Virus record (IMG/VR): IMGVR_UViG_3300045988_159957
DNA from: a virus
DNA length: 51,598 bases
Strand: one strand, 5' to 3'
In this document: positions 17,421-40,907 of the stretch, piece by piece
Layout: the number at the start of each line of letters is the position of its first letter
Numbering within the stretch: position 1 is the stretch's first letter
The notes under the pieces: model-generated
The model's database searches: none
The model's input: the letters and a program-made list of their open reading frames with translations, nothing else
Told to the model about the DNA's origin: nothing
Translations under genes and position numbers: made by a program

Positions 17421-17694
17421 TTTTCAATACCTCCTTTACATCTTCTATGGAGTAGCAGATACCAACAAGAGCTCCGGCTGCTTGCCATTTCTTTAAATAC
17501 AACTTTTGCTGTTTAGTAGGTTGATACCCTGTATCTGGGCTTTTAAGTTCTATCTTGAAACATCTTCCTTTGTAGCAGCCATTGATATCTGCTCTCCCAC
17601 TCTGCTTTGCATTCCCACTTACATTCTCTGCTACACATTGAGGGAGAGAATTCAGATATCTGAGGACTTTACTCTGCAATACTGACTCTACCAT
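17407..17694 (-). CDS. VRR-NUC domain nuclease
   Basis: GRADINGCYKGRCFKIELKSP...QQKLYLKKWQAAGA gives the D...ExK core typical of VRR-NUC. Confidence 0.75.
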   Translation of the reverse strand: MVESVLQSKVLRYLNSLPQCVAENVSGNAKQSGRADINGCYKGRCFKIELKSPDTGYQPTKQQKLYLKKWQAAGALVGICYSIEDVKEVLKIDQD

Positions 17695-18083
17695 ATCTCA
17701 TCATCGTCATCATTCTTTACAAGAATAGACTCTGTGCGACAGAACCCTGCTATTGCTTTGTCATCCCAGTATTCATTTGCATACACCTTTCTTGTACTAT
17801 TGTTGAAGAGAATCTTACACTCATCAAGATTATCATTGATAGCATCAAAATGCAATCCTCTCTCCGTGCAGAACTCAACTGCAGCTTTCAGTCTTTCATT
17901 GTCTCTGCTAGTCCAGAGAATTATCTTTGCACCCTTATCAATGGCTTCTCTCACCATACCCCAAGTAGCTTCAATGGGTTCTCCAATCTCAGGAAATCTG
18001 TCCTCAACCAGAGTACCATCAAAATCAACCGCAATGATGTATGGTAACTTGTTCATTTGTTCTTTAGAAACATTCTTCTCCAT
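17688..18083 (-). CDS. HAD-superfamily phosphatase (candidate dNMP nucleotidase)
   Basis: N-terminal DxDGT motif IIAVDFDGTLVED, 131 aa. Confidence 0.65.
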   Translation of the reverse strand: MEKNVSKEQMNKLPYIIAVDFDGTLVEDRFPEIGEPIEATWGMVREAIDKGAKIILWTSRDNERLKAAVEFCTERGLHFDAINDNLDECKILFNNSTRKVYANEYWDDKAIAGFCRTESILVKNDDDDEIW

Positions 18084-18426
18084 AAATATTCAATTCCTCC
18101 TTCATTTTTCTTGTCAGCCATACTCTTAACCAGCCCTGACGATCTGTATTGCTCTCAATATACAACTCAGGGTGAGCTCTCCTGTAGAAATCTTTCACCA
18201 ATTCCTTGAGAACTTTTATATCATTCTTAGAGGACATAGCCAGATGAATATTGAAATCTTCCTTTGCCCATCTTGAAATGATATCATTAAGATCCGTAGT
18301 TTCAAGAGTTTTTTCTCTCATAAATCTCTTGTACAGATCGTCATCAATGTAAGAGATGTGCGTCCATTCTGCTCTATCATGTTCTTCATTGACAACTTTT
18401 ATGATCACTTTTCCCAACTTTGCCAT
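18064..18426 (-). CDS. Hypothetical protein (120 aa)
   Basis: ATG 18426 lies 7 nt after AGGAGG (track start 18513 is inside the upstream gene). Confidence 0.5.
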   Translation of the reverse strand: MAKLGKVIIKVVNEEHDRAEWTHISYIDDDLYKRFMREKTLETTDLNDIISRWAKEDFNIHLAMSSKNDIKVLKELVKDFYRRAHPELYIESNTDRQGWLRVWLTRKMKEELNIYGEECF

Positions 18427-19213
18427 TGATATCCTCCTGAGATTCAGTAACTTCTCTGTTCTTGAGTGATGTGTTGTAATCTCTCTCATATAAATGAAGA
18501 GATGCAGCAACATGAGTATATGTTCCCAGTTCTACTCCAAGCCGCATTGCAAGATAGATCTGAATGCAAGTGAACTGGAACACATCATTCGGGAAGCCCA
18601 TCCAAAGGTCATTGCTCCGCATGTAGGTTGTCATGCACAGTCTTCCGTCTCTCAAAAGGAACTGAAGACATACGGTACAGTTCAGATCTTTAGTAGGATT
18701 CTCAATGATATTTGTTGCTTCCTTGATGTGAATCACCGCCTGACGTGTATTCGGATCTCTCCGGAGGAGTTCTTCACACATCTTGAGCTGATCAAAAGAA
18801 CCAGTCCCATGCTTCCAATCAACAGCATTCTGTATCTTTTCTCCATAGTTGCTGTTAACAACCTCTCCATCATCACTCATTCTGTCCCAAGCCCTAGTAT
18901 AGAGCTGAATAGCTTTCAAGGTAGGAATTCCAGAAAGATACCAAAGGAGTTCACCGATACAGTATCTCATCGGCAGCTTTCTTATAGGACTTTTCAGGAT
19001 GCATCTTGTAGGATCCTCTATGGTGGTTACTGCATTGATGATTTCACCAATCACAGCCCCATCTCTGCTAGAGTCTACACCTTTGCTTTCCTGAGCTATG
19101 CACTCAATTTCATCATACCAGAATTTCCAGGCTTCATCTATATCTTTTGCGTATTTTGTTATGTTGTATGCTGTATTCACGGTTCTACAATGCCTCCTTT
19201 TGATGTGTCCCAT
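18386..19213 (-). CDS. ThyA-family enzyme (thymidylate synthase or predicted dUMP hydroxymethylase)
   Basis: YMRSNDLWMGFPNDVFQF (compare YQRSxDxxLGxPFN), NCTVCLQFLL (catalytic Cys region), SLHLYE. An alternative GTG start at 19180 overlaps the kinase stop. Confidence 0.8.
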   Translation of the reverse strand: MGHIKRRHCRTVNTAYNITKYAKDIDEAWKFWYDEIECIAQESKGVDSSRDGAVIGEIINAVTTIEDPTRCILKSPIRKLPMRYCIGELLWYLSGIPTLKAIQLYTRAWDRMSDDGEVVNSNYGEKIQNAVDWKHGTGSFDQLKMCEELLRRDPNTRQAVIHIKEATNIIENPTKDLNCTVCLQFLLRDGRLCMTTYMRSNDLWMGFPNDVFQFTCIQIYLAMRLGVELGTYTHVAASLHLYERDYNTSLKNREVTESQEDINGKVGKSDHKSCQ

Positions 19214-19644
19214 ACAAGGACATTTGGTGCTATCAAAGATTTCTCAAACATGATTGATTCAAATCTACCCTTGACTTCACTTATTGTCAGTCCATTGATG
19301 AGTGTTTCACCCCTGTCAGAAAGCCTTTCTTCAATATCCTTCTTATCTGCTGTTACATAGATCACTTTTGCACTGAAAGCCATCATTTCAACTTCCAACT
19401 TGTGAAGATTCTTGATAGAACCCAGAGGTCTTTCCTTTTCTTCCTGATACACAAACTGACCGTAACAGAATCTGTCAGCAATAACATTCTTCTCTCTTGA
19501 AGCCATGATCAGTTCATGAAAAAACCTCATGTCATTTGGTGTAAGAGTGGTACAATGAATGATGTCTGCATTCATCACTTTTGCAAGGTTATTTGCAACG
19601 GTTGTTTTTCCAGCCCCATCACATCCTTCTAATACAATCAGCAT
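19177..19644 (-). CDS. Thymidylate-kinase-like dNMP kinase
   Basis: P-loop IVLEGCDGAGKTT and a DRFCYGQFVYQ motif (the Tmk DRY/F..S..YQ pattern). Confidence 0.75.
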   Translation of the reverse strand: MLIVLEGCDGAGKTTVANNLAKVMNADIIHCTTLTPNDMRFFHELIMASREKNVIADRFCYGQFVYQEEKERPLGSIKNLHKLEVEMMAFSAKVIYVTADKKDIEERLSDRGETLINGLTISEVKGRFESIMFEKSLIAPNVLVWDTSKGGIVEP

Positions 19645-19802
19645 TTTGTTTCCTCCCTCTTTATATCAATTCTTATTACATCACGAACTCTGTATACAGA
19701 TATCTTCCCATCGGTAACTTTCAAGTCCATTCTGGGTATAGCTTTATTCTCACAGAGCAACTTATATGCATTACTTATCCATTCCAAATAATCTCTTTCC
19801 AT
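19638..19802 (-). CDS. 54-aa hypothetical protein, translationally coupled between the rSAM and kinase genes
   Basis: Hand-read MERDYLEWISNAYKLLCENKAIPRMDLKVTDGKISVYRVRDVIRIDIKREETKC. GGGAGGA RBS lies inside the rSAM 3' end. Its stop overlaps the kinase ATG. Confidence 0.5.
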   Translation of the reverse strand: MERDYLEWISNAYKLLCENKAIPRMDLKVTDGKISVYRVRDVIRIDIKREETKC

Positions 19803-19804
19803 GA

Positions 19805-20770
19805 TCATTCCTCCCATTTCTGCTTATGCCAGTTATCACCACAGAGCGGTTCACTTGTCTCTGACACTGATTTTGCAAACTCTTCGATCTTTTTAGTAGG
19901 TTCAGGCATCGTCTCTTTTCCAAGCTGATCCGGAAGCAATCCAACTCTATGAGATAATGCATTACAGCCAAGACAAGGAGTGAAGTTTCTCTTTCCAGCA
20001 TAGAGCAATATTCTTGCAGCTTTGAATTTCTTATCCTGCCAAATATCATCTATGCCTCTCTTCAGGATATTTCCGATAGGGTATTCTCCTCTAAAGTCAT
20101 TACAGCACAGAGCAACTGAACCATCATACCGGAATGTCATCTCTCTGAAAGGTCTTGCACAACGCTTACCATCATAAGAATAATCTAAAGGGGCAGCAGC
20201 ACCACAGTGATTACACAGGTGCCGATTGATTGCAGCACCCTCATCTGTCTGAATGGGTGGATTGAAGAGAATTCTGAACTTTTTATGACTAGAGCTGTAC
20301 AATGGAATACCTTTACCAAGAATTTCATACTCAAAGTCTTTGTTATCTTTGATATACTCAAGAATTTGGTGTCCATCATCTTTAGGGGTATACATGTCTA
20401 TGATCAAGTCATTAAGTCCTGCAGATTTGAGCTCAGCAATCTTGGCTTCGATGCCATCGGAATGTACAATGCCATATCCGTTGGTCATCATTGACAACAC
20501 AGCTTTGGGAAGCCTTTTTCTAAAGAGCTTTACCAATCGAACACAGTTCTTGTTAAGCGTAGGTTCTCCATGCATGCTGAAGATTATTCTGCTATTCCAT
20601 CCAACTCTAACAATTTCATCTGCTATTCTCTCTGCTGTTTCTTTTGTCATGAAATAGAATGGTTCTTTTCCTTTCTCTCTCATGCCTCTCAAACCACAGA
20701 ATCCACAGCCACGATTGCACCCCTCAGTGAACTCTACCTGAATTGAGAAAGGTCTTTCTTGAAGCTTCAT
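19805..20770 (-). CDS. Radical SAM enzyme with a C-terminal SPASM/twitch-like Cys cluster
   Basis: CNRGCGFC (CX3CX2C), plus a C-terminal CNHC...CARP...CCNDF...CLGC. ATG 20770 lies 6 nt after GGGAGGA. Confidence 0.85.
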   Translation of the reverse strand: MKLQERPFSIQVEFTEGCNRGCGFCGLRGMREKGKEPFYFMTKETAERIADEIVRVGWNSRIIFSMHGEPTLNKNCVRLVKLFRKRLPKAVLSMMTNGYGIVHSDGIEAKIAELKSAGLNDLIIDMYTPKDDGHQILEYIKDNKDFEYEILGKGIPLYSSSHKKFRILFNPPIQTDEGAAINRHLCNHCGAAAPLDYSYDGKRCARPFREMTFRYDGSVALCCNDFRGEYPIGNILKRGIDDIWQDKKFKAARILLYAGKRNFTPCLGCNALSHRVGLLPDQLGKETMPEPTKKIEEFAKSVSETSEPLCGDNWHKQKWEE

Positions 20771-20772
20771 TA

Positions 20773-21717
20773 TCATTCCTCCCAATATTCTTTGATTGCT
20801 TTTGTTCCTCTTATCTTATGGAGCTTCCGGTAGTCGATATCACCCCACATGTAGTTACCCTCTTCATCTCTGAATGAAATTCTGAGGTAATCACGAATAG
20901 GATACTTCTGCAGCATTCTATATTCATAAGCATGGAGCTCTTTCTCTGTTTCCGGAGTTCTTATAACACTATCACATTTTTCACTCACATAGTCATATGT
21001 GAGACAAGGGATATTAAAAAGAGATCCTCCGGCTTTCAGAATAACTGCACAGAACCCAATATCATCACCATGACGGTCAAATCTCTTCACATCACGGTCA
21101 ATACCAGCCTTGTGAAGCCCTTTCACATTTATAAATGTCACCTGCCTAGGAGTAGGTCCAGCATTGATGATGTACTTGAGTTTAGCATTATCCACTGCCT
21201 GACTGAGTCTCTGTCTTCTAATGTTTCCAAGATACACATCAGGGTAGTTCTTAAACACTTCTCTTGACAGCTTTGCAGCCATGAGTAACACTTTCTGCTC
21301 AAGCAGAGGATCCTTTTCTCTATCAATTTGGATCGTGTGTTTTGAGCAAAGATGACCCGTTCCGGATACCCCATCATACATGTATGCAACGTACTTGATG
21401 TCATCATCCATATCAATTATCATGGAATATTTATGCTCAACTGCATATTCATATATGAATTGACGTGTGCTCGCAAGACCATTGATCGGGTAATCCTCCG
21501 GAATCGGAAGAACATGGAATTCGGGGTTCTGTTTCTTGTAAGCTTCATATTGTTCACTCCTTACAACAATATGGATCTTTTTCTTCACTTCTTCAGAGAA
21601 TGTTCTAAAGAGCTTTGCACTCACAAAATCAGGTCTGTTATAGGACGGGCAAAATATATGTGGCATGGAGCTTACATCAAGCTCATCCAGCAGTCTTTTC
21701 ATTTTCTTTTTCTTCAT
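20773..21717 (-). CDS. GT-A-fold glycosyltransferase-like protein (DxD), function unknown
   Basis: IFCPSYNRPDF...IHIVVRSEQYEAY...MIIDMDDDIKY pattern resembles small phage DNA-glycosyltransferase/TAGT-like GT-A enzymes. Assignment by eye only. Confidence 0.4.
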   Translation of the reverse strand: MKKKKMKRLLDELDVSSMPHIFCPSYNRPDFVSAKLFRTFSEEVKKKIHIVVRSEQYEAYKKQNPEFHVLPIPEDYPINGLASTRQFIYEYAVEHKYSMIIDMDDDIKYVAYMYDGVSGTGHLCSKHTIQIDREKDPLLEQKVLLMAAKLSREVFKNYPDVYLGNIRRQRLSQAVDNAKLKYIINAGPTPRQVTFINVKGLHKAGIDRDVKRFDRHGDDIGFCAVILKAGGSLFNIPCLTYDYVSEKCDSVIRTPETEKELHAYEYRMLQKYPIRDYLRISFRDEEGNYMWGDIDYRKLHKIRGTKAIKEYWEE

Positions 21718-25107: not shown

Positions 25108-25129
25108 ATAAATTTTTATAAAAATTTAT
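25108..25129. repeat. Perfect 22-bp A/T palindrome just upstream of P3
   Basis: ataaatttttataaaaatttat is its own reverse complement. It overlaps the stop of CDS 25126..25767. Confidence 0.8.
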
Positions 25130-25767
25130 TCCCTTTTGAATCGTACTTCACTGAAGGACGGAATATGCTTAATCTTACAGCTCATTTCTCTGCATTCTTC
25201 AGGAACTTTGCCATAGAACAGCACACCTTTTGGTGACAGCTCTTTAAGCATTTTTTCATAACCATTTAAGAATAGCTGCTTTGAAGTTTTACCGGAAAGA
25301 GCACCAGTGGAGCTTACAGTTACCCAGCTATCCTTGGGTTCTCCATCAAAGCACCATTCAAATGAATATTCATCACTCCAGCATATAGTAGGTATTACAA
25401 TAATTCCTTTACTCTGCATATAAGCAGCGAGCCAGTGCTTTCTATAATGATTGTACATTTGAAGTGGTAATGGATAATCTGTAAACAAACTAAAATCAGG
25501 TGATGCTACAACTGCATATCTCTGAAGAATACTGCAATATTTATCAGGATCATTCCAAACTCTTTCGAATTGATAATCATCAAGATAGAAATGAACTCCT
25601 GTTGCTTCACCATTCCTTGATTGTTTAGTGGAATAATTGAAGCCAATCCACTCCTTTACTTTAGGTAAGTGCCTAGTAGGTTCAATCACAGGAAAGTCAT
25701 ATTCTGTTCTCTGAAAATCTGACCATCTCTGCAGATTCTGATAATTTCTCGTCTGTTTATGAGTCAT
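25126..25767 (-). CDS. DUF4417-like protein
   Basis: 213 aa. GVHFYLDDYQFERVWNDP...VASPDFSLFTDYP...NHYRKHWLAAYMQSKGIIVIPT pattern recalled as DUF4417. Assignment unverified. Confidence 0.4.
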   Translation of the reverse strand: MTHKQTRNYQNLQRWSDFQRTEYDFPVIEPTRHLPKVKEWIGFNYSTKQSRNGEATGVHFYLDDYQFERVWNDPDKYCSILQRYAVVASPDFSLFTDYPLPLQMYNHYRKHWLAAYMQSKGIIVIPTICWSDEYSFEWCFDGEPKDSWVTVSSTGALSGKTSKQLFLNGYEKMLKELSPKGVLFYGKVPEECREMSCKIKHIPSFSEVRFKRE

Positions 25768-28131: not shown

Positions 28132-28614
28132 TCAACAACAGTACCTCCAATCCTCACATGTCCTTGATTGCTGCTGTGAGTTATTAAGTATCTCTCCTGT
28201 GACCTCACAGCAGATGCTAGAAGAATGGTGATTGTTAAGATACTTACAATAGGAACAGCTGTAAATTTCTCTAGTAGGTTCCAGCTCTTCACAGGCATAC
28301 CCATTTCTATTGAACCATTCTCTTATGATATCTCTGTGACAATGCTTTCCAGGCTTTTCCCAACACAACAAGACTTTTCCATTCAGCCTGTTGTAGAATT
28401 CTTTGACATCTAGAGCTTTCAGCTTCTTGATGTAAGCTTTCCTGAATTCCTTCCAAGTGATCACCCCGTCTTTATAGCTTTTCACCATCTTCCAATCTGG
28501 CTTCAGCTCTTCGCACACCTCATATTCTGTTCCTTTGGGCACACTATTTGCTACTGATACACCACAGGATCCCCTGTAGTGAGCAAAATATCCAGTAAAT
28601 ACCATATAAATCAC
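28132..28614 (-). CDS. DUF488-like protein with a Cys-rich C-terminal extension
   Basis: VLLCWEKPGKHCHRDIIREWF resembles the DUF488 signature. The tail is CSYCKYL...ICCEV...CEDWRYCC. The start is uncertain (GTG 28614 or ATG 28605). Confidence 0.45.
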   Translation of the reverse strand: MIYMVFTGYFAHYRGSCGVSVANSVPKGTEYEVCEELKPDWKMVKSYKDGVITWKEFRKAYIKKLKALDVKEFYNRLNGKVLLCWEKPGKHCHRDIIREWFNRNGYACEELEPTREIYSCSYCKYLNNHHSSSICCEVTGEILNNSQQQSRTCEDWRYCC

Positions 28615-30719: not shown

Positions 30720-31184
30720 TCAACCTTTCTTGTAGAATGGCTTTACTCCTTCAACTGCTTCTGCACTGTAGCATATATCACATCTACCATATTCATGGTT
30801 CTTTGAGTATACACATGTCTCACAGCCTTGAGCTTCTTTAGTAGGCTCAACAGATCTATCAACAGTAGTTTGCTGCATACTATCGCTTGCATCAAGCCAT
30901 CTCTTAAGTCTACCTATCTTTCTTTTCATTCTGTCAAGAACCTCTTCATCTGACAGCTCAAATATATTCTGCACGTGATCAAGAATGATCTTGACATCTG
31001 ACACTTCATCAAGAACTGCATCTACAAGTTTTGCTCTTGCTTCTTCCTCATTATCATAGCGAGGAAATTTTGCTAAAACACAGGCAAGCTCATTGAGCTC
31101 CTCTATGCACACGAGAATTTGATTCTTGTTGCCATAGGTGTCTCTGGCTTGTTTTAAGATCTTACTCATTTCTTCATTACTCAT
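30720..31184 (-). CDS. MazG-like nucleotide pyrophosphohydrolase with a C-terminal Cys motif
   Basis: EELNELACVLAK and DEVSDVKIILDHV (EExxE...ExxD), plus a C-terminal CETC...CDIC. Confidence 0.7.
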   Translation of the reverse strand: MSNEEMSKILKQARDTYGNKNQILVCIEELNELACVLAKFPRYDNEEEARAKLVDAVLDEVSDVKIILDHVQNIFELSDEEVLDRMKRKIGRLKRWLDASDSMQQTTVDRSVEPTKEAQGCETCVYSKNHEYGRCDICYSAEAVEGVKPFYKKG

Positions 31185-31195
31185 GATTTCACCCC

Positions 31196-31672
31196 TTATG
31201 AATTATTGTCTTCAGCATTCCAAGCTGCATGAATTGTTTGCACACCGGCTTCATCAAACATCCTTTGAGTCATAGGAGAGACACTTTCTCTTCTTCCATA
31301 GATCACTTCCTTTATCCCTGCCCGAATGATAGCTCTTGCACAAGCTTCACAGGGATATCTTGTAATGTAAATTGATGATCCATAGAGGCTTATTCCAACT
31401 CTTGCTGCAATAGAGATAGCGTTGACCTCACTGTGAATTGCCACACAATCACTAGGTAATCTGTGATTTTTAGAATCTTCTCCATACAGTTCAACTCTAT
31501 GACATCCCTCTTCTTTACAATTTCTTCCTATTCCCTCATTAAATCCCCATACCAAGTCTTCTCCATCCTTATCTGTGATGACACAACCGACGTGGACTTT
31601 AGCACAGGTAGAAAGGCTGTCTGCTTTTCTCTGTACTCTATCAAGCCAATCATTGATGTTATAATCCTGCAT
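31196..31672 (-). CDS. dCMP deaminase
   Basis: HSEVNAI and PCEACARAI zinc motifs. ATG 31672 lies 6 nt after GAGGAGG. Confidence 0.85.
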   Translation of the reverse strand: MQDYNINDWLDRVQRKADSLSTCAKVHVGCVITDKDGEDLVWGFNEGIGRNCKEEGCHRVELYGEDSKNHRLPSDCVAIHSEVNAISIAARVGISLYGSSIYITRYPCEACARAIIRAGIKEVIYGRRESVSPMTQRMFDEAGVQTIHAAWNAEDNNS

Positions 31673-32057
31673 TGTCTTCCTCCTCAATCTGGTATAAAAA
31701 TTCTATTGCTTCTGGAAGATCCTCTACCAGAATAGATGGGTTTCCATTTCTATCCAAGTATGTGAATCTCTTATTCTTCTTTTCCTTTCTCTTTTCAGCT
31801 ACAGAGGTTCTCACATAGAATCGATGTGCCTGTCTTAATGCAAGACAAGTCCAGATAAGGAATAGGGAAAGCATCAACAAGCCATCAGATCGACATAAAA
31901 CACTGTAGCTATATAAGGTGAGAATGCATATTGCAATAATATCTCTGAGCACGTAGAAGAGCTCAAGAAGAGCTCTTGTAAGAGCCTTTACTCCTTTTGC
32001 AATCCCTTTAGAAAGACCAATCATTGCTTCCTTAAATGTATTCTTCATATCTCTCAC
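31659..32057 (-). CDS. Membrane protein (two or three TM segments), hypothetical
   Basis: 132 aa with hydrophobic stretches IIAICILTLYSYSVL and LLMLSLFLIWTCLAL. Confidence 0.5.
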   Translation of the reverse strand: MRDMKNTFKEAMIGLSKGIAKGVKALTRALLELFYVLRDIIAICILTLYSYSVLCRSDGLLMLSLFLIWTCLALRQAHRFYVRTSVAEKRKEKKNKRFTYLDRNGNPSILVEDLPEAIEFLYQIEEEDNAGL

Positions 32058-32641
32058 ACTCCATACACTTTACTTGCAAACATGTCCGCTGTATGAACAA
32101 ATAACACATTTGGATATTCTCTTACAGCAGCATCATAACTGTTCCAGAAATCTTTCTCATAAGCTCCCATGTGATGAACAATGCAAATTTTTTCTTCCTC
32201 TGTAAGATCTACATATCGTTCAGCAATAAGTGCAGAAGCAACCCCATGACCAGGGATGATAGGTGTCCTGTATTGCCAAGTGCCCTCATGATCTTTCTCA
32301 TAGGTTTCCAACTTGCAAAGATCATGGAACAGTCCTATGATTATCGGAGATTCCGGTCTTTCCCATTTGAGATCAAGATTAACTGTCAACTCCAGCAGCT
32401 TATGCACCACAGCCAGGCTATGATCAAAAAGTCCTCCATCATAGGCACCATGATATTTAGTGCTTGCAGGGTTCAAACAGAAGTCTCTGTCAATAAGACT
32501 TCTTAAGATAGGTTCACTCAAACAAGGGAGATCACTAAAGTTACTGAGTAGAAAATCTATTCTTTCTCCAACTGTGTGATATCTATTGTCAAGGTATTCT
32601 TCTAATTCCTTCATTATTCCTTCATAGTATCCAGTTCTCAT
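32054..32641 (-). CDS. HD-domain phosphohydrolase
   Basis: YHGAYDGGLFDHS...LFHDLCK...IVHHMG. ATG 32641 lies 8 nt after AGGAGG. Confidence 0.75.
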   Translation of the reverse strand: MRTGYYEGIMKELEEYLDNRYHTVGERIDFLLSNFSDLPCLSEPILRSLIDRDFCLNPASTKYHGAYDGGLFDHSLAVVHKLLELTVNLDLKWERPESPIIIGLFHDLCKLETYEKDHEGTWQYRTPIIPGHGVASALIAERYVDLTEEEKICIVHHMGAYEKDFWNSYDAAVREYPNVLFVHTADMFASKVYGV

Positions 32642-32642
32642 T

Positions 32643-33692
32643 TTATATTCCTCCTCTATATTTATTCTTGGGTCTTCCTGTCCCATTCACAGCCTTTACA
32701 TACTTACTCAATTCACACATGCAATTCTCAATAGACATCACATTCATAAGCCTGTCATATTTGGGTAAATCATGAAACAACTCTACTGGAACATACATTG
32801 GATGCCCATAGTCATATTCAAGCAGCTCTGATGCATCAAACAGACTTCTATAGCCCTCAGCATTTATAGCGTCTCTCAGCCAGAATATACACTCTTCATA
32901 AGTCATTCCATCTTTATCCTTAAAGATGAGATCAAGTCCTCTCTTACACCCAGGACCAGCTACCGTGAATTCATTCTCACTGAAAGGGAATTCTGGTATA
33001 TAGGTCAGATCTACAAACACCTGATATGCAAGAAAATCAGCAAAGCCTTTAATAGACTTTATGATCTCAAAGCATTCTTTCTGGTCATGTGCATTTAGAA
33101 GTTTATTCACAATGCCATACTTTCCAAGCCACACCCCTACATGGAACGGTCTCAAAGGAATGTCTTGTTCCTTATCAATGGGGTGTTCCATGTCACTTGA
33201 CCTCCAGGCTTGTTTTGTTCCACCCTGATTGTAAGCATTTGACCACCACAACCTCCCAGGATCAGCAGCCTGGAGTCTTTTATATATAGGACGGACAAAT
33301 TCCTTTAGATCAGAATGGTACAGTGTTTCGGCTGAATAAGGGAATCCAAAGGAATCAAGAGTGCTCCAATTATTCCAACATCGAAACATGAAACAGTTTA
33401 CGATCTTATCTTCGAGGGTAAGATCAGCATTGTTGACAATACTCTTTATGAGATACCTTGTCTGTCTGTCATGCTCTCTACGAACATTTGTAAATTTGAA
33501 CTCTCTCAATACAGGGTTATCAGTCCAAGGAGCTGGAAGCCCTTTCAAATCTTTCCTTTTATGAATTCTGTATCGATCAACAACAAATCTTTTGAAGTGA
33601 TACACATTCTCCCAGTCAAGAATGGGTTCTGCTGAATCTATGACTTCTTCTCTTACTCCACAATAAAGGACATCAGCTTTCTTTGTTCTCAT
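32643..33692 (-). CDS. aGPT-Pplase-like protein (alpha-glutamyl/putrescinyl thymine pyrophosphorylase family), DNA base hypermodification
   Basis: RYRIHKRKDLKGLPAPWTDNPVLREFKFTNVRREHDRQTRYL matches the remembered PWT.DP.L..(Y/F).F.NV.RE.DR.T signature of the family. Not verified by search. Confidence 0.55.
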   Translation of the reverse strand: MRTKKADVLYCGVREEVIDSAEPILDWENVYHFKRFVVDRYRIHKRKDLKGLPAPWTDNPVLREFKFTNVRREHDRQTRYLIKSIVNNADLTLEDKIVNCFMFRCWNNWSTLDSFGFPYSAETLYHSDLKEFVRPIYKRLQAADPGRLWWSNAYNQGGTKQAWRSSDMEHPIDKEQDIPLRPFHVGVWLGKYGIVNKLLNAHDQKECFEIIKSIKGFADFLAYQVFVDLTYIPEFPFSENEFTVAGPGCKRGLDLIFKDKDGMTYEECIFWLRDAINAEGYRSLFDASELLEYDYGHPMYVPVELFHDLPKYDRLMNVMSIENCMCELSKYVKAVNGTGRPKNKYRGGI

Positions 33693-33996
33693 TCAAATAC
33701 TCCTTTCTATAATATTGTGCTGCTGAACAAATGAACTCTTTTGTCTTAACACTTGAATGAGAATAGATCTTATCATAATCCTCTTTACTCATGTTCTTAA
33801 GTGCCTGAGACTTTGCCAATCTTACAGCCTTTTCGATGCAAGCATAGCTCTTTCCGATCTCTTTCTGCAGGTGTGTGTAGAATGAAGAATCTCCATCATG
33901 CTCTACCACGTACTGAATAGCTTTACAAATGTAGGAAAATCCTGTAAGATTTGTAGGAACTTTCAGTATACTCCAAACAAAATTCGAAATAGACAT
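33673..33996 (-). CDS. Spo0A C-terminal (DNA-binding) domain-like protein without a receiver domain
   Basis: LKVPTNLTGFSYICKAIQYV / IEKAVRLAKSQAL / KTKEFICSAAQY align by eye to B. subtilis Spo0A [20 protein letters not shown] / VERAIRHAIEVAW / PTNSEFIAMVAD. ATG 33996 is preferred over GTG 34008. Confidence 0.55.
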   Translation of the reverse strand: MSISNFVWSILKVPTNLTGFSYICKAIQYVVEHDGDSSFYTHLQKEIGKSYACIEKAVRLAKSQALKNMSKEDYDKIYSHSSVKTKEFICSAAQYYRKEYLNENKES

Positions 33997-34039
33997 TAAA
34001 CTTTTCACCCCTTTCTATTACTTTTTACAACCCACAAGT

Positions 34040-37747: not shown

Positions 37748-38269
37748 TTATTGTCTCGCCCCCTCATTCTCCATCTCTTGTATCATAGAATATCCCATCT
37801 CTTGTATCATAAGATGGTCAAACTTCACCAGGACCTTGCTCCATTGATCCTCCGGAATCGCTCCACAATCATACTTCTCCTGTAGATTATGAAAGCACTG
37901 AATTAGATATCTGTAATTGTGCCAAGACTCATACAGGTTTTTGCATGGATCCTCACATTCCTCATCAAGTGTGTACCAAGGATTGATCTTCCTGAACACA
38001 CCATTGTTGCTTGCCTTACATAAGTTCTTGTAGAATTGATCTAAAGACTTCTTATTTACTTTGAATCCTCTCTTCTCGATCTCATTGATGACTTTGTTTG
38101 TGTAATATAAAAATGATGTCTCATCATACTCAATGAGTCTATTCACGAGAATATGGTTCGGTCCTCCTTTCTCTGCCATATTCTTCGCTATACAGCAACA
38201 TTCTCTCCATTGAGCAATGAGCTGTCGATTGGGTAACACATCAATCAGATCCTTATGCCACATTCTCAT
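37748..38269 (-). CDS. DenV-like pyrimidine-dimer DNA glycosylase family protein (TIGR02328-like)
   Basis: MRMWHKDLIDVLPNRQLIAQWRECCCIAKN matches the MRLWHxxLIxxLPxxQLLGQxRE signature. An alternative GTG start lies at 38275. Confidence 0.6.
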   Translation of the reverse strand: MRMWHKDLIDVLPNRQLIAQWRECCCIAKNMAEKGGPNHILVNRLIEYDETSFLYYTNKVINEIEKRGFKVNKKSLDQFYKNLCKASNNGVFRKINPWYTLDEECEDPCKNLYESWHNYRYLIQCFHNLQEKYDCGAIPEDQWSKVLVKFDHLMIQEMGYSMIQEMENEGARQ

Positions 38270-38283
38270 CTTCACTTTTCCTC

Positions 38284-39950: not shown

Positions 39951-40052
39951 GAGTTTTTTAAAAGAATTTTCACACAAATTTCACAGAGTGACATAATTGT
40001 GTATGAAAACGGTTTTACGTTCATAAATTTTATAAAATAAAAACTCCATTTT

Positions 40053-40785
40053 ATACCTATTTTTGCACCTATTTTTAGGTATTATTTCTCAAAATTTTTT
40101 ATTTTTGGTGTAAAAATTTACTGTACAAGGTAAAGCAAAAACAGGTATATTTATCACAAAAATAGGTATAAAAATAGGTATTTTTAGCATTTTGTATGAG
40201 TAGCATTTTGACAAAAATAGGTATAAAATTTTTGAAGAATTCACTATTTTACTCTACTTGTCATGATTTTAAAAATACCTATTTTTGTTTTTATCCTGTG
40301 CTTTTGTGGTCAACTGAATTTTGTGTAAAAATTAAGTGTCTTTGCGAAATGTGAAAATTTTGACAGTTTACTCTCAGTTTACTTTATAAGGTAAAATAGA
40401 ATAGGTTTTTTATTGATCAAAATAGGTATTCTCTTTCAAAAATAGGTATAAAAATAGGTATTTTTGTGTAAAATCTATGAGTGTGCAAACACAAAAATAG
40501 GTATAAAATTTTTTCAGAATGTTGTATTTTACTCATAAAACTACTATTTTCAAAATACCTATTTTTATTTATATTGTTGTAGGTACAATAAAAAATAATA
40601 GTATAATTTACATATAGACATATATAATATATATAAAATAAATGCACACAAAAATAGGTATAAAAATCGCCAAAATCGCTTGAATTGCTCTCTCGAATGG
40701 CATTTTCAGAAAAAACAAAAATAGGTATACGATCGTGCAAACTTCATCATTTTACTCATCCAGTCACGATTCGCAAAAATAGGGT
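40053..40785. repeat. Iteron array: AAAAATAGGTAT motif, at least 9 forward and 3-4 inverted copies (candidate replication origin or operator array)
   Basis: Forward copies start at 40158, 40170, 40213, 40419 (11-mer), 40438, 40450, 40493, 40650 and 40717, with a degenerate copy at 40775. Inverted copies (ATACCTATTTTT) start at 40053, 40275 and 40555, with a degenerate copy at 40066. The block 40156-40290 is re-used at +280 bp. Confidence 0.85.
40561..40650. other. Extremely A/T-rich stretch inside the iteron region (candidate DNA unwinding element)
   Basis: atttttatttatattgttgtaggtacaataaaaaataatagtataatttacatatagacatatataatatatataaaataaat. Confidence 0.5.
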
Positions 40786-40907
40786 TTTTTTATTAAATAT
40801 TTGCATACGGTTTTACGTTTTTATCTCAAGCATTTTTGCTCATTACTTTTGCTTCTGGGGCATGCTCCCTGGGCTGTGCTTCGCACAAAAAACTTTGGCA
40901 AAAGAAA

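What the first reader, a model, noticed from the sequence alone, without database searches (positions are those of the whole stretch)
30720..33692. aGPT-Pplase-like gene with a full dTTP-exclusion / dUMP-supply set (HD hydrolase, dCMP deaminase, MazG) plus a membrane protein
CDS 32643..33692 carries the PWT-D-P-L...F-x-N-V-x-R-E-x-D-R-x-T signature. I recall this from alpha-glutamyl/putrescinyl thymine pyrophosphorylase (aGPT-Pplase) proteins, which replace the pyrophosphate on activated 5-hmdU in DNA with an amine or amino acid. The neighbouring genes fit the same pathway:
- An HD phosphohydrolase and a MazG pyrophosphohydrolase could act as dTTP/dUTP clearance.
- A dCMP deaminase would supply dUMP.

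With the ThyA-like operon at 17.7-21.7 kb, this makes a coherent two-locus pathway for replacing and then decorating thymidine. The 132-aa membrane protein inside this gene set is unexplained.
Basis: partly seen in the sequence, partly recalled or inferred. Interest (0 to 1): 0.7.

Follow-up and report, generated by a model that had tools for sequence, protein, structure and literature searches.

The report
Kinase-less thymidine-hypermodification module of a phage
A gut-type phage carries a gene of the little-understood "clade 1 aGPT-Pplase" family next to enzymes that look able to swap thymidine for 5-hydroxymethyl-deoxyuridine, but it lacks the DNA kinase and amino-acid transferase of known pathways, so it probably decorates its DNA by an undescribed route.

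Summary
The five minus-strand genes are real. The 349-aa protein matches Pfam PF18723 (E 6.9e-61). PF18723 is now named HMUDK_hel; it is the family formerly called aGPT-Pplase clade 1. The protein is 38% identical to Salmonella phage ViI gp160. Amine or amino-acid transfer has been shown only for clade 2 (PF18724, ADDT), acting on 5-hmdU that a 5-HMUDK kinase has phosphorylated. The window encodes neither enzyme.

The neighbours are:
- a dCMP deaminase with intact zinc motifs;
- a MazG/YpjD-like NTP pyrophosphohydrolase with the EExxE and ExxD motifs;
- an HD hydrolase of unknown substrate;
- a real, fast-evolving 129-aa membrane protein that always sits just upstream of the deaminase gene.

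PF18723, deaminase, MazG and primase are linked in 41 related contigs. Nine of these also carry the second operon: TAGT, radical SAM/SPASM, dTMP-kinase-like, ThyA-like and HAD phosphatase. Distant phages have a contiguous PF18723–TAGT–rSAM–ThyA cassette. Enterobacteria have ThyA–dNMP kinase–PF18723–TIR–Nmad2, which is the validated NTTI defence system.

PF18723 keeps an invariant Cys-Glu dyad that aligns weakly with the ADDT catalytic site. I read this as a kinase-independent variant of 5-hmdU hypermodification.

The parts
32643..33692 (-). 349-aa PF18723 protein (HMUDK_hel, the former aGPT-Pplase clade 1; ViI gp160-like). Predicted all-alpha fold with an invariant Cys326-Glu327 dyad.
   Evidence: Pfam 6.9e-61 and no other Pfam hit at E<=10. 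38% identity to ViI orf00160 and CBA120 orf156. AlphaFold2 pLDDT 90.4. Foldseek: SP10 gp186 6.7e-13, PhiW-14 C9DG43 1.9e-7. Invariant residues.
32054..32686 (-). HD-domain metal-dependent phosphohydrolase. 210 aa from the first ATG; 195 aa from ATG 32641, as called in relatives. Substrate unknown.
   Evidence: PF01966 24.3 bits, PHROG 5889/28876. 4585 homologues with invariant H64, H74, H106-D107, H132, H157, H183-D186 in 195-aa numbering. AlphaFold2 pLDDT 95.7; best PDB neighbour is the YhaM HD domain, E 2.7e-3. Present in 25 of 41 related IMG/VR loci (about 60%), at variable positions.
31659..32048 (-). 129-aa membrane protein: two hydrophobic helices plus a conserved acidic C-terminal motif, KRFTxLDxNGNPxIxxEDLPEIIEYLYxLEE. 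Its stop overlaps the start of the deaminase gene.
   Evidence: Hydropathy. 17 synonymous against 3 non-synonymous codon differences compared with L104. 21 representative homologues of 83-136 aa plus one weak hit in a 1067-aa protein, 29-49% identical; alignment A3. Same position, directly upstream of the dCMP deaminase, in 4 of 4 contexts examined. Found in only 1 of 41 IMG/VR clade loci.
31196..31687 (-). dCMP deaminase (158 aa from ATG 31672): supplies dUMP.
   Evidence: PF00383 6.7e-18, PHROG 174 3e-30. HxE and PCxxC conserved in 48 sequences. Linked to the PF18723 gene in all 41 clade loci.
30720..31184 (-). MazG/YpjD-like all-alpha NTP pyrophosphohydrolase (residues 1-115) with a non-conserved C-terminal CxxC...CxxC tail. 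Candidate dTTPase/dUTPase.
   Evidence: PHROG 2245 1.6e-14. E28, E29, E32, E60 and D63 invariant. Profile hit to YpjD (2gta), E 0.0029, aligning both acidic motifs. Linked to the PF18723 gene and the primase gene in 40 of the 41 clade loci.
20773..21717 (-). TAGT-family DNA (hydroxymethyl-pyrimidine) glycosyltransferase; first gene of the second locus.
   Evidence: PF20691 8.5e-13, PHROG 4519 5.9e-26. Operon conserved in 13 IMG/VR contigs.
19805..20785 (-). Radical SAM + SPASM enzyme; its start overlaps the end of the TAGT gene.
   Evidence: PF04055 5.8e-17 and PF13186 8.8e-13. 44% identical to the rSAM of the distant cassette in L087. Only one weak hit in 50,697 GenBank phage records.
19177..19644 (-). 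155-aa dTMP-kinase-like P-loop kinase (P-loop GCDGAGKT). Candidate 5-hmdUMP kinase, not a 5-hmdU DNA kinase.
   Evidence: PF02223 7.5e-10, TIGR00041 7.7e-15. It is the only small P-loop kinase candidate in the window. No similarity to 5-HMUDKs beyond the P-loop.
18386..19213 (-). ThyA-like enzyme, probably a dUMP hydroxymethylase.
   Evidence: PF00303 7.2e-23. Catalytic Cys present, and Asn at the position of E. coli N177, which indicates uracil specificity. Shares SDDG, KDxxC and RSNDL motifs with the ThyA-like enzymes of hypermodifying phages. Best phage hit is 57% identical and annotated deoxyuridylate hydroxymethyltransferase.
18064..18513 (-). 149-aa protein of unknown function, conserved within the operon.
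   Evidence: No family hits. Conserved in 12 of the 13 related loci; the 13th locus ends before the gene.
17688..18083 (-). HAD-type phosphatase (BT0820-like). Candidate dNMP (dTMP) phosphatase.
   Evidence: NF046079 2.7e-28, PHROG 1238. Conserved in the operon.

Best explanation
The region is the nucleotide-pool half of a two-locus system that probably builds phage DNA with 5-hydroxymethyl-dU in place of T and then modifies that base in the polymer. It would do so without the DNA kinase and the amino-acid:DNA transferase of the known pathways.

Inferred steps before replication:
- dCMP deaminase makes dUMP.
- The ThyA-like enzyme makes 5-hmdUMP.
- The dTMP-kinase-like enzyme makes 5-hmdUDP, and host NDP kinase makes the triphosphate.
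- The MazG-like pyrophosphohydrolase removes dTTP and dUTP, possibly helped by the HD and HAD hydrolases.
- The phage PolA incorporates 5-hmdU.

Inferred steps after replication:
- The 349-aa PF18723 protein binds DNA, flips out 5-hmdU and acts on it through its invariant Cys326/Glu322/Glu327/Asp228 pocket. The chemistry would resemble the cysteine attack on C6 used by its clade 2 relatives.
- It works together with the TAGT glycosyltransferase and the radical SAM/SPASM enzyme.

Shown here: family memberships, motif integrity, gene linkage, and the absence of a kinase and of ADDT. Inferred: every enzymatic specificity, the identity of the final base, and whether PF18723 is catalytic at all.
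For: - PF18723 membership and homology to ViI gp160, SP10 gp186C and PhiW-14 gp72.
- No ADDT or 5-HMUDK anywhere in the 51.6-kb window, by Pfam, tblastn and a P-loop scan.
- C326, E327, K330, D228, Y223, G246 and G248 are 100% conserved, and E322 99%, in 81 sequences. The same motifs are kept in archaeal-MAG and enterobacterial homologues.
- Profile-profile alignment places DRxxN(4)ENxxC of PF18723 on DRxxN(4)ETxxC of ADDT, which carries the catalytic Cys and the metal-binding Glu. Residue roles come from PMC11472151, PMC13458397 and PMC8989533.
- Foldseek's top PDB hit is PaMx11 gp46 (E 0.095). An ADDT-domain protein in BFVD scores E 0.022, TM 0.46-0.48.
- PF18723, dCD, MazG and primase are linked in 41 related loci, with HD in about 60%.
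- TAGT-rSAM-TMK-ThyA-o149-HAD is conserved in 13 contigs. Nine of these also carry the PF18723 locus, and none shows a kinase or ADDT.
- A contiguous PF18723-(X/TAGT)-rSAM-ThyA cassette occurs in distant phages.
- A ThyA-dNMP kinase-PF18723 core occurs in the validated NTTI defence system.
- The active-site motifs of dCD, MazG, HD and ThyA-like are intact.
Against: - There is no chemical evidence for any modified base in this phage.
- Similarity between PF18723 and ADDT is weak: hhalign probability 20%, Foldseek E 0.02-0.1.
- Clade 1 proteins were dispensable for the kinase and transferase steps reconstituted in vitro, and Pfam now labels the family only a 'helical domain'.
- In the window the PF18723 gene sits with nucleotide-metabolism genes, 11 kb from TAGT and rSAM. 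A role on free nucleotides is therefore not excluded.
- Some sister lineages do carry a 5-HMUDK (L029, L060) or a PF18723-kinase fusion (L040, L074), so a very divergent kinase here cannot be ruled out completely.
- The HD enzyme's nearest structure is an exonuclease domain.
Confidence: 0.55

Rival explanations
1. The 349-aa protein is an aGPT-Pplase in the functional sense: it displaces (pyro)phosphate from kinase-activated 5-hmdU in DNA with an amine or amino acid.
For: - It belongs to the superfamily, and a Cys-Glu motif aligns with the ADDT catalytic site.
- In the table of Lee et al. 2018, SP10 has only the clade 1-type domain (gp186C) and no second Pplase, yet it makes alpha-glutamylthymidine (Foldseek). 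This hints that clade 1 can be a transferase.
Against: - No 5-HMUDK in the window. The only small kinase has a dTMP-kinase P-loop.
- No PF18724 match even at E<=10.
- No PLP, FAD or acetyltransferase tailoring genes were found.
- Transfer activity has been shown only for clade 2, and M6 gp55 was not needed.
Confidence: 0.1
2. PF18723 is a non-catalytic DNA-binding or base-recognition adaptor, the 'helical domain' of the Pfam name. It targets partner enzymes to 5-hmdU sites: the DNA kinase in other phages, TAGT and rSAM here, and TIR/Nmad2 effectors in NTTI.
For: - The Pfam name.
- Fusions or adjacency to 5-HMUDK in SP10, L040, L074, M6-like phages and Nachito.
- Dispensable in vitro.
- It occurs with very different partner sets.
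Against: Strict invariance of a Cys-Glu dyad and several polar residues down to 23% identity, in a motif that aligns with the ADDT active site. This is more typical of an enzyme.
Confidence: 0.2
3. PF18723 is the missing polymer-level enzyme that converts 5-hmdU, or an activated form of it, back to canonical thymine at sites that are not hypermodified.
For: - SP10, PhiW-14, M6 and ViI virions contain no 5-hmdU. Each 5-hmdU becomes either the hypermodified base or thymine after replication (PMC8989533).
- I did not find this enzyme assigned in the papers read.
- A clade 1 protein is present in all four phages.
- ADDT plus borohydride yields thymidine through the exocyclic methylene, which shows the chemistry is accessible to this fold.
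Against: - No reductant-binding domain is evident.
- There is no kinase here to provide a leaving group.
- The role in the NTTI defence system is hard to reconcile.
- The argument is purely inferential.
Confidence: 0.12
4. An ordinary nucleotide-salvage module. The ThyA-like enzyme is a normal thymidylate synthase, dCD/MazG/HD simply boost and sanitise the dNTP pools, and the DNA carries canonical T.
For: dCD, thymidylate synthase, dNMP kinase and MazG are common auxiliary genes in phages. All the thymidylate-synthase-family matches score below the equivalog cut-offs, so specificity is unproven.
Against: - In the records examined here PF18723 sits beside ThyA-like/5-hmdU-pathway genes or in the NTTI system. 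The contexts of the DPANN/archaeal-MAG homologues were not resolved.
- A TAGT DNA glycosyltransferase and an rSAM enzyme sit in one operon with ThyA.
- The ThyA-like protein shares motifs with the ThyA-like enzymes of hypermodifying phages, lacks the thymidylate synthase C-terminus, and is 57% identical to a protein annotated as dUMP hydroxymethyltransferase.
Confidence: 0.08

Closest known systems
Clade 1 aGPT-Pplase / HMUDK_hel proteins of thymidine-hypermodifying phages (ViI gp160, M6 gp55-type such as ZC01 gp13, SP10 gp186 C-terminal domain, PhiW-14 gp72)
   Same: Same Pfam family (PF18723), same signature motifs and invariant Cys-Glu dyad, same predicted fold. They occur in genomes with a ThyA-like dUMP hydroxymethylase. 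In ViI and CBA120 the gene also lies next to a gene annotated MazG-like.
   Different: Those phages also encode a 5-HMUDK (fused or adjacent) and, except possibly SP10, a clade 2 ADDT. The window phage has neither. Its partners are TAGT, rSAM/SPASM and a dTMP-kinase-like enzyme. The function of clade 1 was not established in any of the papers read.
Clade 2 aGPT-Pplase = ADDT/AADT/DADT/PUGT (PF18724): M6 gp51, ViI gp247, PaMx11 gp46 (PDB 8z2m), YuA and phage 15599 Pplase2
   Same: Distant fold and sequence relationship. DRxxN(4)E-x-x-x-C aligns with the catalytic Cys and metal-binding Glu, and an FGxxxxY/F..D segment also aligns.
   Different: No PF18724 match. Foldseek TM is only 0.27-0.48. 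No phosphorylated substrate can be made here. No amino-acid tailoring enzymes were found.
SPO1/SP8-type 'hmU phage' nucleotide rewiring, and the dTTPase/dUTPase of Acinetobacter phage 15599
   Same: The same logic: dCMP deaminase, dUMP hydroxymethylase, 5-hmdUMP kinase, dTTP/dUTP pyrophosphatase and dTMP phosphatase (PMC8989533 introduction; PMC13458397).
   Different: The enzymes here are only distantly related or not related: a MazG/YpjD-like protein with a Cys-rich tail, an HD hydrolase whose nearest structure is YhaM, and a BT0820-like HAD phosphatase. None has been assayed.
NTTI (DS-3) anti-phage defence system of E. coli (DefensePredictor, Science 2026, PMC13092281)
   Same: Shares the core of ThyA-like enzyme, dNMP kinase and PF18723 protein, with no 5-HMUDK and no ADDT. 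The enterobacterial PF18723 proteins are 34-37% identical to the window protein and keep all motifs.
   Different: It is a chromosomal defence operon with TIR and Nmad2 genes. It has no TAGT, rSAM, dCD or MazG. Its biological role is defence rather than protection of phage DNA.
TET/JBP-associated glycosyltransferase (TAGT) systems
   Same: The second locus encodes a PF20691 glycosyltransferase expected to glycosylate a hydroxymethyl-pyrimidine in DNA.
   Different: The hydroxymethyl base would come from a ThyA-like enzyme acting before replication, not from a TET/JBP dioxygenase. TAGT is coupled to a radical SAM/SPASM enzyme and to PF18723.

Membership tests
PF18723 HMUDK_hel (former aGPT-Pplase clade 1) | Profile match above the curated cut-off over the whole domain | tested here: met
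   206.5 bits against a cut-off of 25; profile positions 5-275 of 281. PHROG 2396 5e-80.
PF18723 HMUDK_hel (former aGPT-Pplase clade 1) | Family signature residues: PWT, FxNxxRExD, FLAYQxFVD, GPGC, ENxxCExxKY | tested here: met
   All present. 19 positions are at least 97% conserved in 81 sequences.
PF18723 HMUDK_hel (former aGPT-Pplase clade 1) | Same fold as the SP10 gp186 C-terminal domain and PhiW-14 gp72 | tested here: met
   Foldseek against BFVD: E 6.7e-13 (TMq 0.70) and E 1.9e-7. Model pLDDT 90.4.
PF18723 HMUDK_hel (former aGPT-Pplase clade 1) | Fusion, adjacency or co-occurrence with a 5-hmdU DNA kinase (PF18748), as the family name implies | tested here: not met
   No PF18748 or 5-HMUDK homologue in the window. 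Absent from the 9 relatives where both loci were read.
PF18723 HMUDK_hel (former aGPT-Pplase clade 1) | Co-occurrence with a ThyA-like dUMP hydroxymethylase | tested here: met
   ThyA-like gene at 18386-19213 with uracil-type Asn. Hydroxymethylase activity itself was not tested.
PF18724 ADDT (aGPT-Pplase clade 2, amino-acid/amine:DNA transferase) | Profile match | tested here: not met
   No hit at E<=10. The control protein ZC01 gp09 hits PF18724 at 4e-27.
PF18724 ADDT (aGPT-Pplase clade 2, amino-acid/amine:DNA transferase) | Essential catalytic Cys with a nearby Glu (E-T-x-x-C) | tested here: inconclusive
   E322-N-C-M-C326 aligns with E-T-I-L-C, but only in weak alignments: E 0.047, and E 2.3e-4 at 20% probability.
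PF18724 ADDT (aGPT-Pplase clade 2, amino-acid/amine:DNA transferase) | Metal-dependent HhH-containing fold of PaMx11 gp46 and YuA Pplase2 | tested here: inconclusive
   8z2m is the top PDB hit, but at E 0.095 and TM 0.27-0.31. An ADDT-domain protein in BFVD scores E 0.022, TM 0.46-0.48.
PF18724 ADDT (aGPT-Pplase clade 2, amino-acid/amine:DNA transferase) | Transfer of an amine or amino acid onto 5-PmdU in DNA | not testable with these tools
   Needs an enzyme assay. The genome also lacks the kinase that makes 5-PmdU.
MazG-like all-alpha NTP pyrophosphohydrolase | EExxE ... ExxD acidic metal-binding motifs on a four-helix core | tested here: met
   E28, E29, E32, E60 and D63 invariant in 14 sequences. 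Both motifs align to YpjD 2gta. PHROG 2245 1.6e-14. The only Pfam hit was DUF7018, below its cut-off.
MazG-like all-alpha NTP pyrophosphohydrolase | Specificity for dTTP/dUTP while sparing 5-hmdUTP | not testable with these tools
   Needs an assay. Precedent: phage 15599 gp18.
HD-domain phosphohydrolase | H...HD...D metal-binding residues and the HD fold | tested here: met
   PF01966 24.3 bits against 22. Invariant His and Asp residues. HD-domain neighbours in the PDB.
HD-domain phosphohydrolase | dNTP or dNMP hydrolase rather than nuclease | tested here: inconclusive
   Best neighbour is the YhaM exonuclease HD domain (E 2.7e-3). SAMHD1 and YfbR score E>0.2.
dCMP deaminase (PF00383) | Profile match plus HxE and PCxxC zinc motifs | tested here: met
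   64.9 bits against 25. Motifs conserved. Below the NCBIfam equivalog cut-offs.

The most novel reading that the evidence does not exclude
PF18723 (clade 1) proteins are enzymes in their own right. They would activate 5-hmdU in DNA without prior phosphorylation: Cys326 adds to C6, and acid-catalysed loss of the 5-hydroxyl gives an exocyclic methylene. In this large clade of uncultured phages they would cooperate with a TAGT glycosyltransferase and a new radical SAM/SPASM enzyme to make a thymidine hypermodification that has not been described, and possibly to regenerate thymine at sites left unmodified. The same chemistry would underlie the NTTI defence system.
Probability: 0.15. Interest if true: 0.85.

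Novelty: new variant of a known kind. Interest (0 to 1): 0.6.

Why it matters
The clade 1 paralogue has been present in the hypermodifying phages examined (ViI, M6, SP10, PhiW-14) since it was predicted in 2013. It has no assigned activity, and Pfam now labels it only a 'helical domain' of the DNA kinase.

This phage clade and two other contexts show the protein conserved without that kinase and without the clade 2 transferase:
- the window's own clade, with 41 related IMG/VR loci (about 1,200 homologous protein clusters family-wide);
- a contiguous cassette in distant phages;
- the validated NTTI defence operon.

In all three it sits with a ThyA-like enzyme, in NTTI and this phage with a dNMP kinase, and in the phages with a DNA glycosyltransferase and a radical SAM/SPASM enzyme that has almost no counterpart in sequenced phages. 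This gives a minimal, testable setting in which to find out three things: what clade 1 does, what base these phages carry, and how NTTI works. It would also add DNA-modifying enzymes of possible use for labelling 5-hmU.

Tried and rejected
- **Nucleotide search.** Megablast of the region and of 25 kb around it against GenBank phages found nothing.
- **Sequence search of solved structures.** Searches with the 349-aa protein and with its family profile found nothing. Only fold search gave a lead.
- **Single-sequence hhalign.** Against one ADDT it was too weak (probability 1%). A richer profile raised the E-value to 2.3e-4 but the probability stayed at 20%.
- **Literature access.** The 2013 paper by Iyer et al. 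that defined the clades is not held, and one literature query was wasted. The Pfam renaming was therefore inferred from annotations and UniProt names, not read from Pfam.
- **Membrane protein.** The word-index homology search found nothing. The exhaustive search did find homologues.
- **Agathobaculum phage AB434P2.** It shares only the ThyA-like gene, so I rejected it as a relative.
- **Sister lineage with a kinase.** Extending the sister lineage that carries a kinase (L060) gave only the same contig.
- **The 155-aa kinase.** I considered it as a 5-HMUDK and rejected that. It has a dTMP-kinase P-loop and a TIGR00041 match, and only the P-loop resembles known 5-HMUDKs.
- **The rSAM enzyme.** I considered it as a homologue of M6 gp53 or SP10 gp185 and rejected that at E<=1e-5.
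- **Uninformative scans.** Promoter/terminator, tRNA and Rfam scans gave nothing useful.
- **Model coordinates.** I could not inspect them, so the clustering of the conserved residues in space is untested.

Full report
**1. What is there**

The window looks like a phage genome of about 51.6 kb. Structural and lysis genes lie on the plus strand, and a replication and nucleotide-metabolism module lies on the minus strand from about 14 to 40 kb. It has no close nucleotide relative among GenBank phages.

Between 33692 and 30720, on the minus strand, five tightly packed or overlapping ORFs sit directly upstream of a primase/D5-type helicase and a family A DNA polymerase. Gene calls on near-identical metagenomic contigs give sizes of 349, 195, 129, 158 and 154 aa.

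**2. The 349-aa protein**

[quoted passage not shown] Nothing else appears even at E<=10.
- PF18723 is the family formerly called aGPT-Pplase clade 1. A Bacillus phage Nachito protein annotated 'aGPT-pyrophosphorylase clade 1' hits PF18723. The M6 gp55-type protein of phage ZC01 hits it too. The PaMx11 gp46-type protein hits PF18724, now named 'ADDT, amino acid:DNA transferase'. BFVD entries named 'Pplase1 ... clade 1' match the model.
- It is 38% identical over its full length to ViI orf00160 (gp160) and CBA120 orf156.
- An AlphaFold2 model (pLDDT 90.4) matches the SP10 gp186 kinase fusion (E 6.7e-13) and the PhiW-14 homologue (E 1.9e-7).

**3. Why the proposed mechanism is not supported**

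The literature assigns the displacement of phosphate by glycine, serine, putrescine or diaminopropane to clade 2 enzymes. These act on 5-hmdU that a P-loop DNA kinase has phosphorylated, through an essential Cys and Glu (PMC8989533, PMC11472151, PMC13458397).

M6 gp54 plus gp51 were sufficient without gp55. The SP10 kinase domain works without its clade 1 domain. Clade 1 therefore has no demonstrated activity.

In this window I found no ADDT and no 5-HMUDK by Pfam, tblastn with known examples, or a Walker-A scan. The only small kinase has a dTMP-kinase P-loop and matches TIGR00041.

**4. Is clade 1 an enzyme?**

Across 81 sequences down to 23% identity, C326, E327, K330, D228, Y223, G246 and G248 are invariant and E322 is 99% conserved. 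Archaeal-MAG and enterobacterial homologues keep the same motifs.

Profile-profile alignment places DRxMNVMSxENxxCE on DRPVNIQEVETILCK of ADDT. That segment carries the catalytic Cys and the metal-binding Glu. The alignment also places FLAYQVFVD on WIGFKVADM.

The statistics are weak: E 2.3e-4 at 20% probability. Foldseek ranks PaMx11 gp46 first in the PDB, but at E 0.095, and finds an ADDT-domain protein in BFVD at E 0.022 with TM 0.46-0.48. I take this as a real but distant relationship and as a hint of related cysteine-based chemistry, not as proof.

**5. The neighbours**

- **dCMP deaminase.** Solid assignment: PF00383, with HxE and PCxxC motifs.
- **154-aa protein.** A MazG/YpjD-type all-alpha pyrophosphohydrolase by PHROG, by invariant EExxE/ExxD motifs and by a profile hit to YpjD. 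Its Cys-rich tail is not conserved.
- **HD protein.** It has the full metal-binding site and a confident model (pLDDT 95.7). Its nearest solved neighbour is the HD domain of the exonuclease YhaM, and SAMHD1 and YfbR are not significant, so its substrate is open.
- **Membrane ORF.** It is a real gene: 17 synonymous against 3 non-synonymous codon differences. It belongs to a small family with variable paired hydrophobic helices and a conserved acidic C-terminal motif. It lies directly upstream of, and overlaps, the deaminase gene in all four further contexts examined. It is restricted to the sub-clade nearest the window. Its role is unknown. Its coupling to the deaminase gene suggests a role in the same process, but I would not go further than that.

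**6. Conservation of the system**

- Of 80 IMG/VR loci encoding a PF18723 relative, 41 belong to the window's phage clade. All of them link PF18723, the deaminase and the primase, and all but one also the MazG-like gene. HD is present in about 60%, at varying positions.
- A contig binned with a Candidatus Avilachnospira MAG has the same arrangement.
- The second locus is conserved as an operon in 13 contigs. It comprises TAGT, radical SAM/SPASM, dTMP-kinase-like, ThyA-like, a 149-aa unknown and a HAD phosphatase. Nine of the 13 are the same contigs that carry the first locus, and none shows a kinase or ADDT.
- The ThyA-like enzyme has the catalytic Cys and the uracil-type Asn, and it shares motifs with the ThyA-like enzymes of hypermodifying phages.
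- Some more distant sister lineages do have a 5-HMUDK (L029; L060, next to TAGT) or a PF18723-kinase fusion (L040, L074). The module is therefore combinatorial.

**7. The same core elsewhere**

In very distant phages, where PF18723 is about 25% identical, the genes are contiguous: PF18723, then an unknown 346-429-aa protein and/or TAGT, then an rSAM/SPASM enzyme 44% identical to the window's, then ThyA-like. L087 adds a YfbR-like HD. The rSAM enzyme has only one weak match among 50,697 GenBank phage records.

In Enterobacterales chromosomes, PF18723 (34-37% identical) sits in the operon ThyA-like, dNMP kinase, PF18723, ThsB-type TIR, Nmad2. This operon is present in 16 of 5,426 complete E. coli genomes. 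It is the experimentally validated defence system DS-3/NTTI of DefensePredictor, whose third protein is listed as PF18723.

A ThyA-like enzyme plus PF18723 without a DNA kinase is thus a recurring unit (with a dNMP kinase in NTTI and the window's clade).

**8. Interpretation**

The best-supported reading is a kinase-independent variant of 5-hmdU-based hypermodification. The region under study rewires the nucleotide pools and supplies the PF18723 protein that acts on DNA. The second locus supplies the hydroxymethylase, the nucleotide kinase, a DNA glycosyltransferase and a radical SAM enzyme.

The main rivals are:
- a non-catalytic adaptor;
- the unidentified enzyme that turns 5-hmdU in DNA back into thymine. 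SP10, PhiW-14, M6 and ViI all need such an enzyme;
- plain nucleotide salvage.

No modified base has been shown for this phage, and every specificity is inferred.

**9. Verdict**

The gene is a new member of a known family of unknown function. The system is a new variant of a known kind.

Noticed in passing
window 40040-40800: At least ten copies, in both orientations, of CAAAAATAGGTAT(A). They lie in the low-GC (0.31), ORF-poor region where gene orientation switches. They look like iterons or operator sites, so this may be an origin or a regulatory region.
   Followed up: no
window 17688-21717 (- strand): A six-gene operon with overlapping genes: TAGT glycosyltransferase, radical SAM/SPASM, dTMP-kinase-like, ThyA-like, a 149-aa unknown and a BT0820-like HAD phosphatase. 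It is conserved in 13 IMG/VR contigs. The rSAM enzyme has almost no counterpart in GenBank phages.
   Followed up: partly
L087 5260-11555; also L077, L079, L085, L086: Distant uncultured phages carry a contiguous cassette: PF18723, then an unknown 346-429-aa family and/or TAGT, then rSAM/SPASM, then ThyA-like. L087 adds a YfbR-like HD. No DNA kinase or ADDT was detected within 10 kb.
   Followed up: partly
L123 4357-8198 (Erwinia chromosome); 16 E. coli genomes: The operon ThyA-like, dNMP kinase, PF18723, ThsB-type TIR, Nmad2 lies beside SLOG and TIR genes. It corresponds to the validated NTTI (DS-3) defence system.
   Followed up: partly
L112-L119, L124 (DPANN and Methanosarcinales MAG contigs): PF18723 homologues 37-42% identical (53% over the partial match in L124) occur on archaeal-MAG contigs of up to 224 kb. 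In L119 the gene is next to a phage-type integrase. I did not resolve whether these are viral or cellular.
   Followed up: no
L040 4644-6521; L074 1469-3295; L060 17638-18793: Two loci (L040 at 39% PF18723 identity, L074 at 31%) fuse PF18723 to a 5-HMUDK kinase in one ORF of 609-626 aa (stop to stop). In L060 a 5-HMUDK lies directly upstream of TAGT.
   Followed up: partly
window 33673-34008 (- strand): A 111-aa protein resembling the Spo0A C-terminal DNA-binding domain (PF08769, 6.8e-7). Its end overlaps the start of the PF18723 gene, and it is conserved at that position in relatives. This fits a Clostridia-type host.
   Followed up: no
window 30720-30860 (C-terminus of the MazG-like protein): A CxxC...CxxC tail (CETC...CDIC) that may bind zinc. 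It is not conserved among relatives, whose C-termini differ.
   Followed up: partly
window 25126-25767 and 28132-28614 (- strand): DUF4417 (7e-54; the PHROG calls it a nuclease) and an 'active DUF488-N3a' protein flank the DNA polymerase gene. Both are uncharacterised families that may relate to nucleic-acid or nucleotide metabolism.
   Followed up: no
window 37748-38275 (- strand): A pyrimidine-dimer DNA glycosylase resembling T4 endonuclease V (PF03013, 1.3e-17), next to a cell-wall hydrolase gene. The pair is conserved in relatives.
   Followed up: no
L008/L088 (IMGVR_UViG_3300045988_132478): The closest relative is 100% identical in the TAGT protein but only 83% identical in the PF18723 protein. 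This indicates recent mosaic exchange between the two loci.
   Followed up: no
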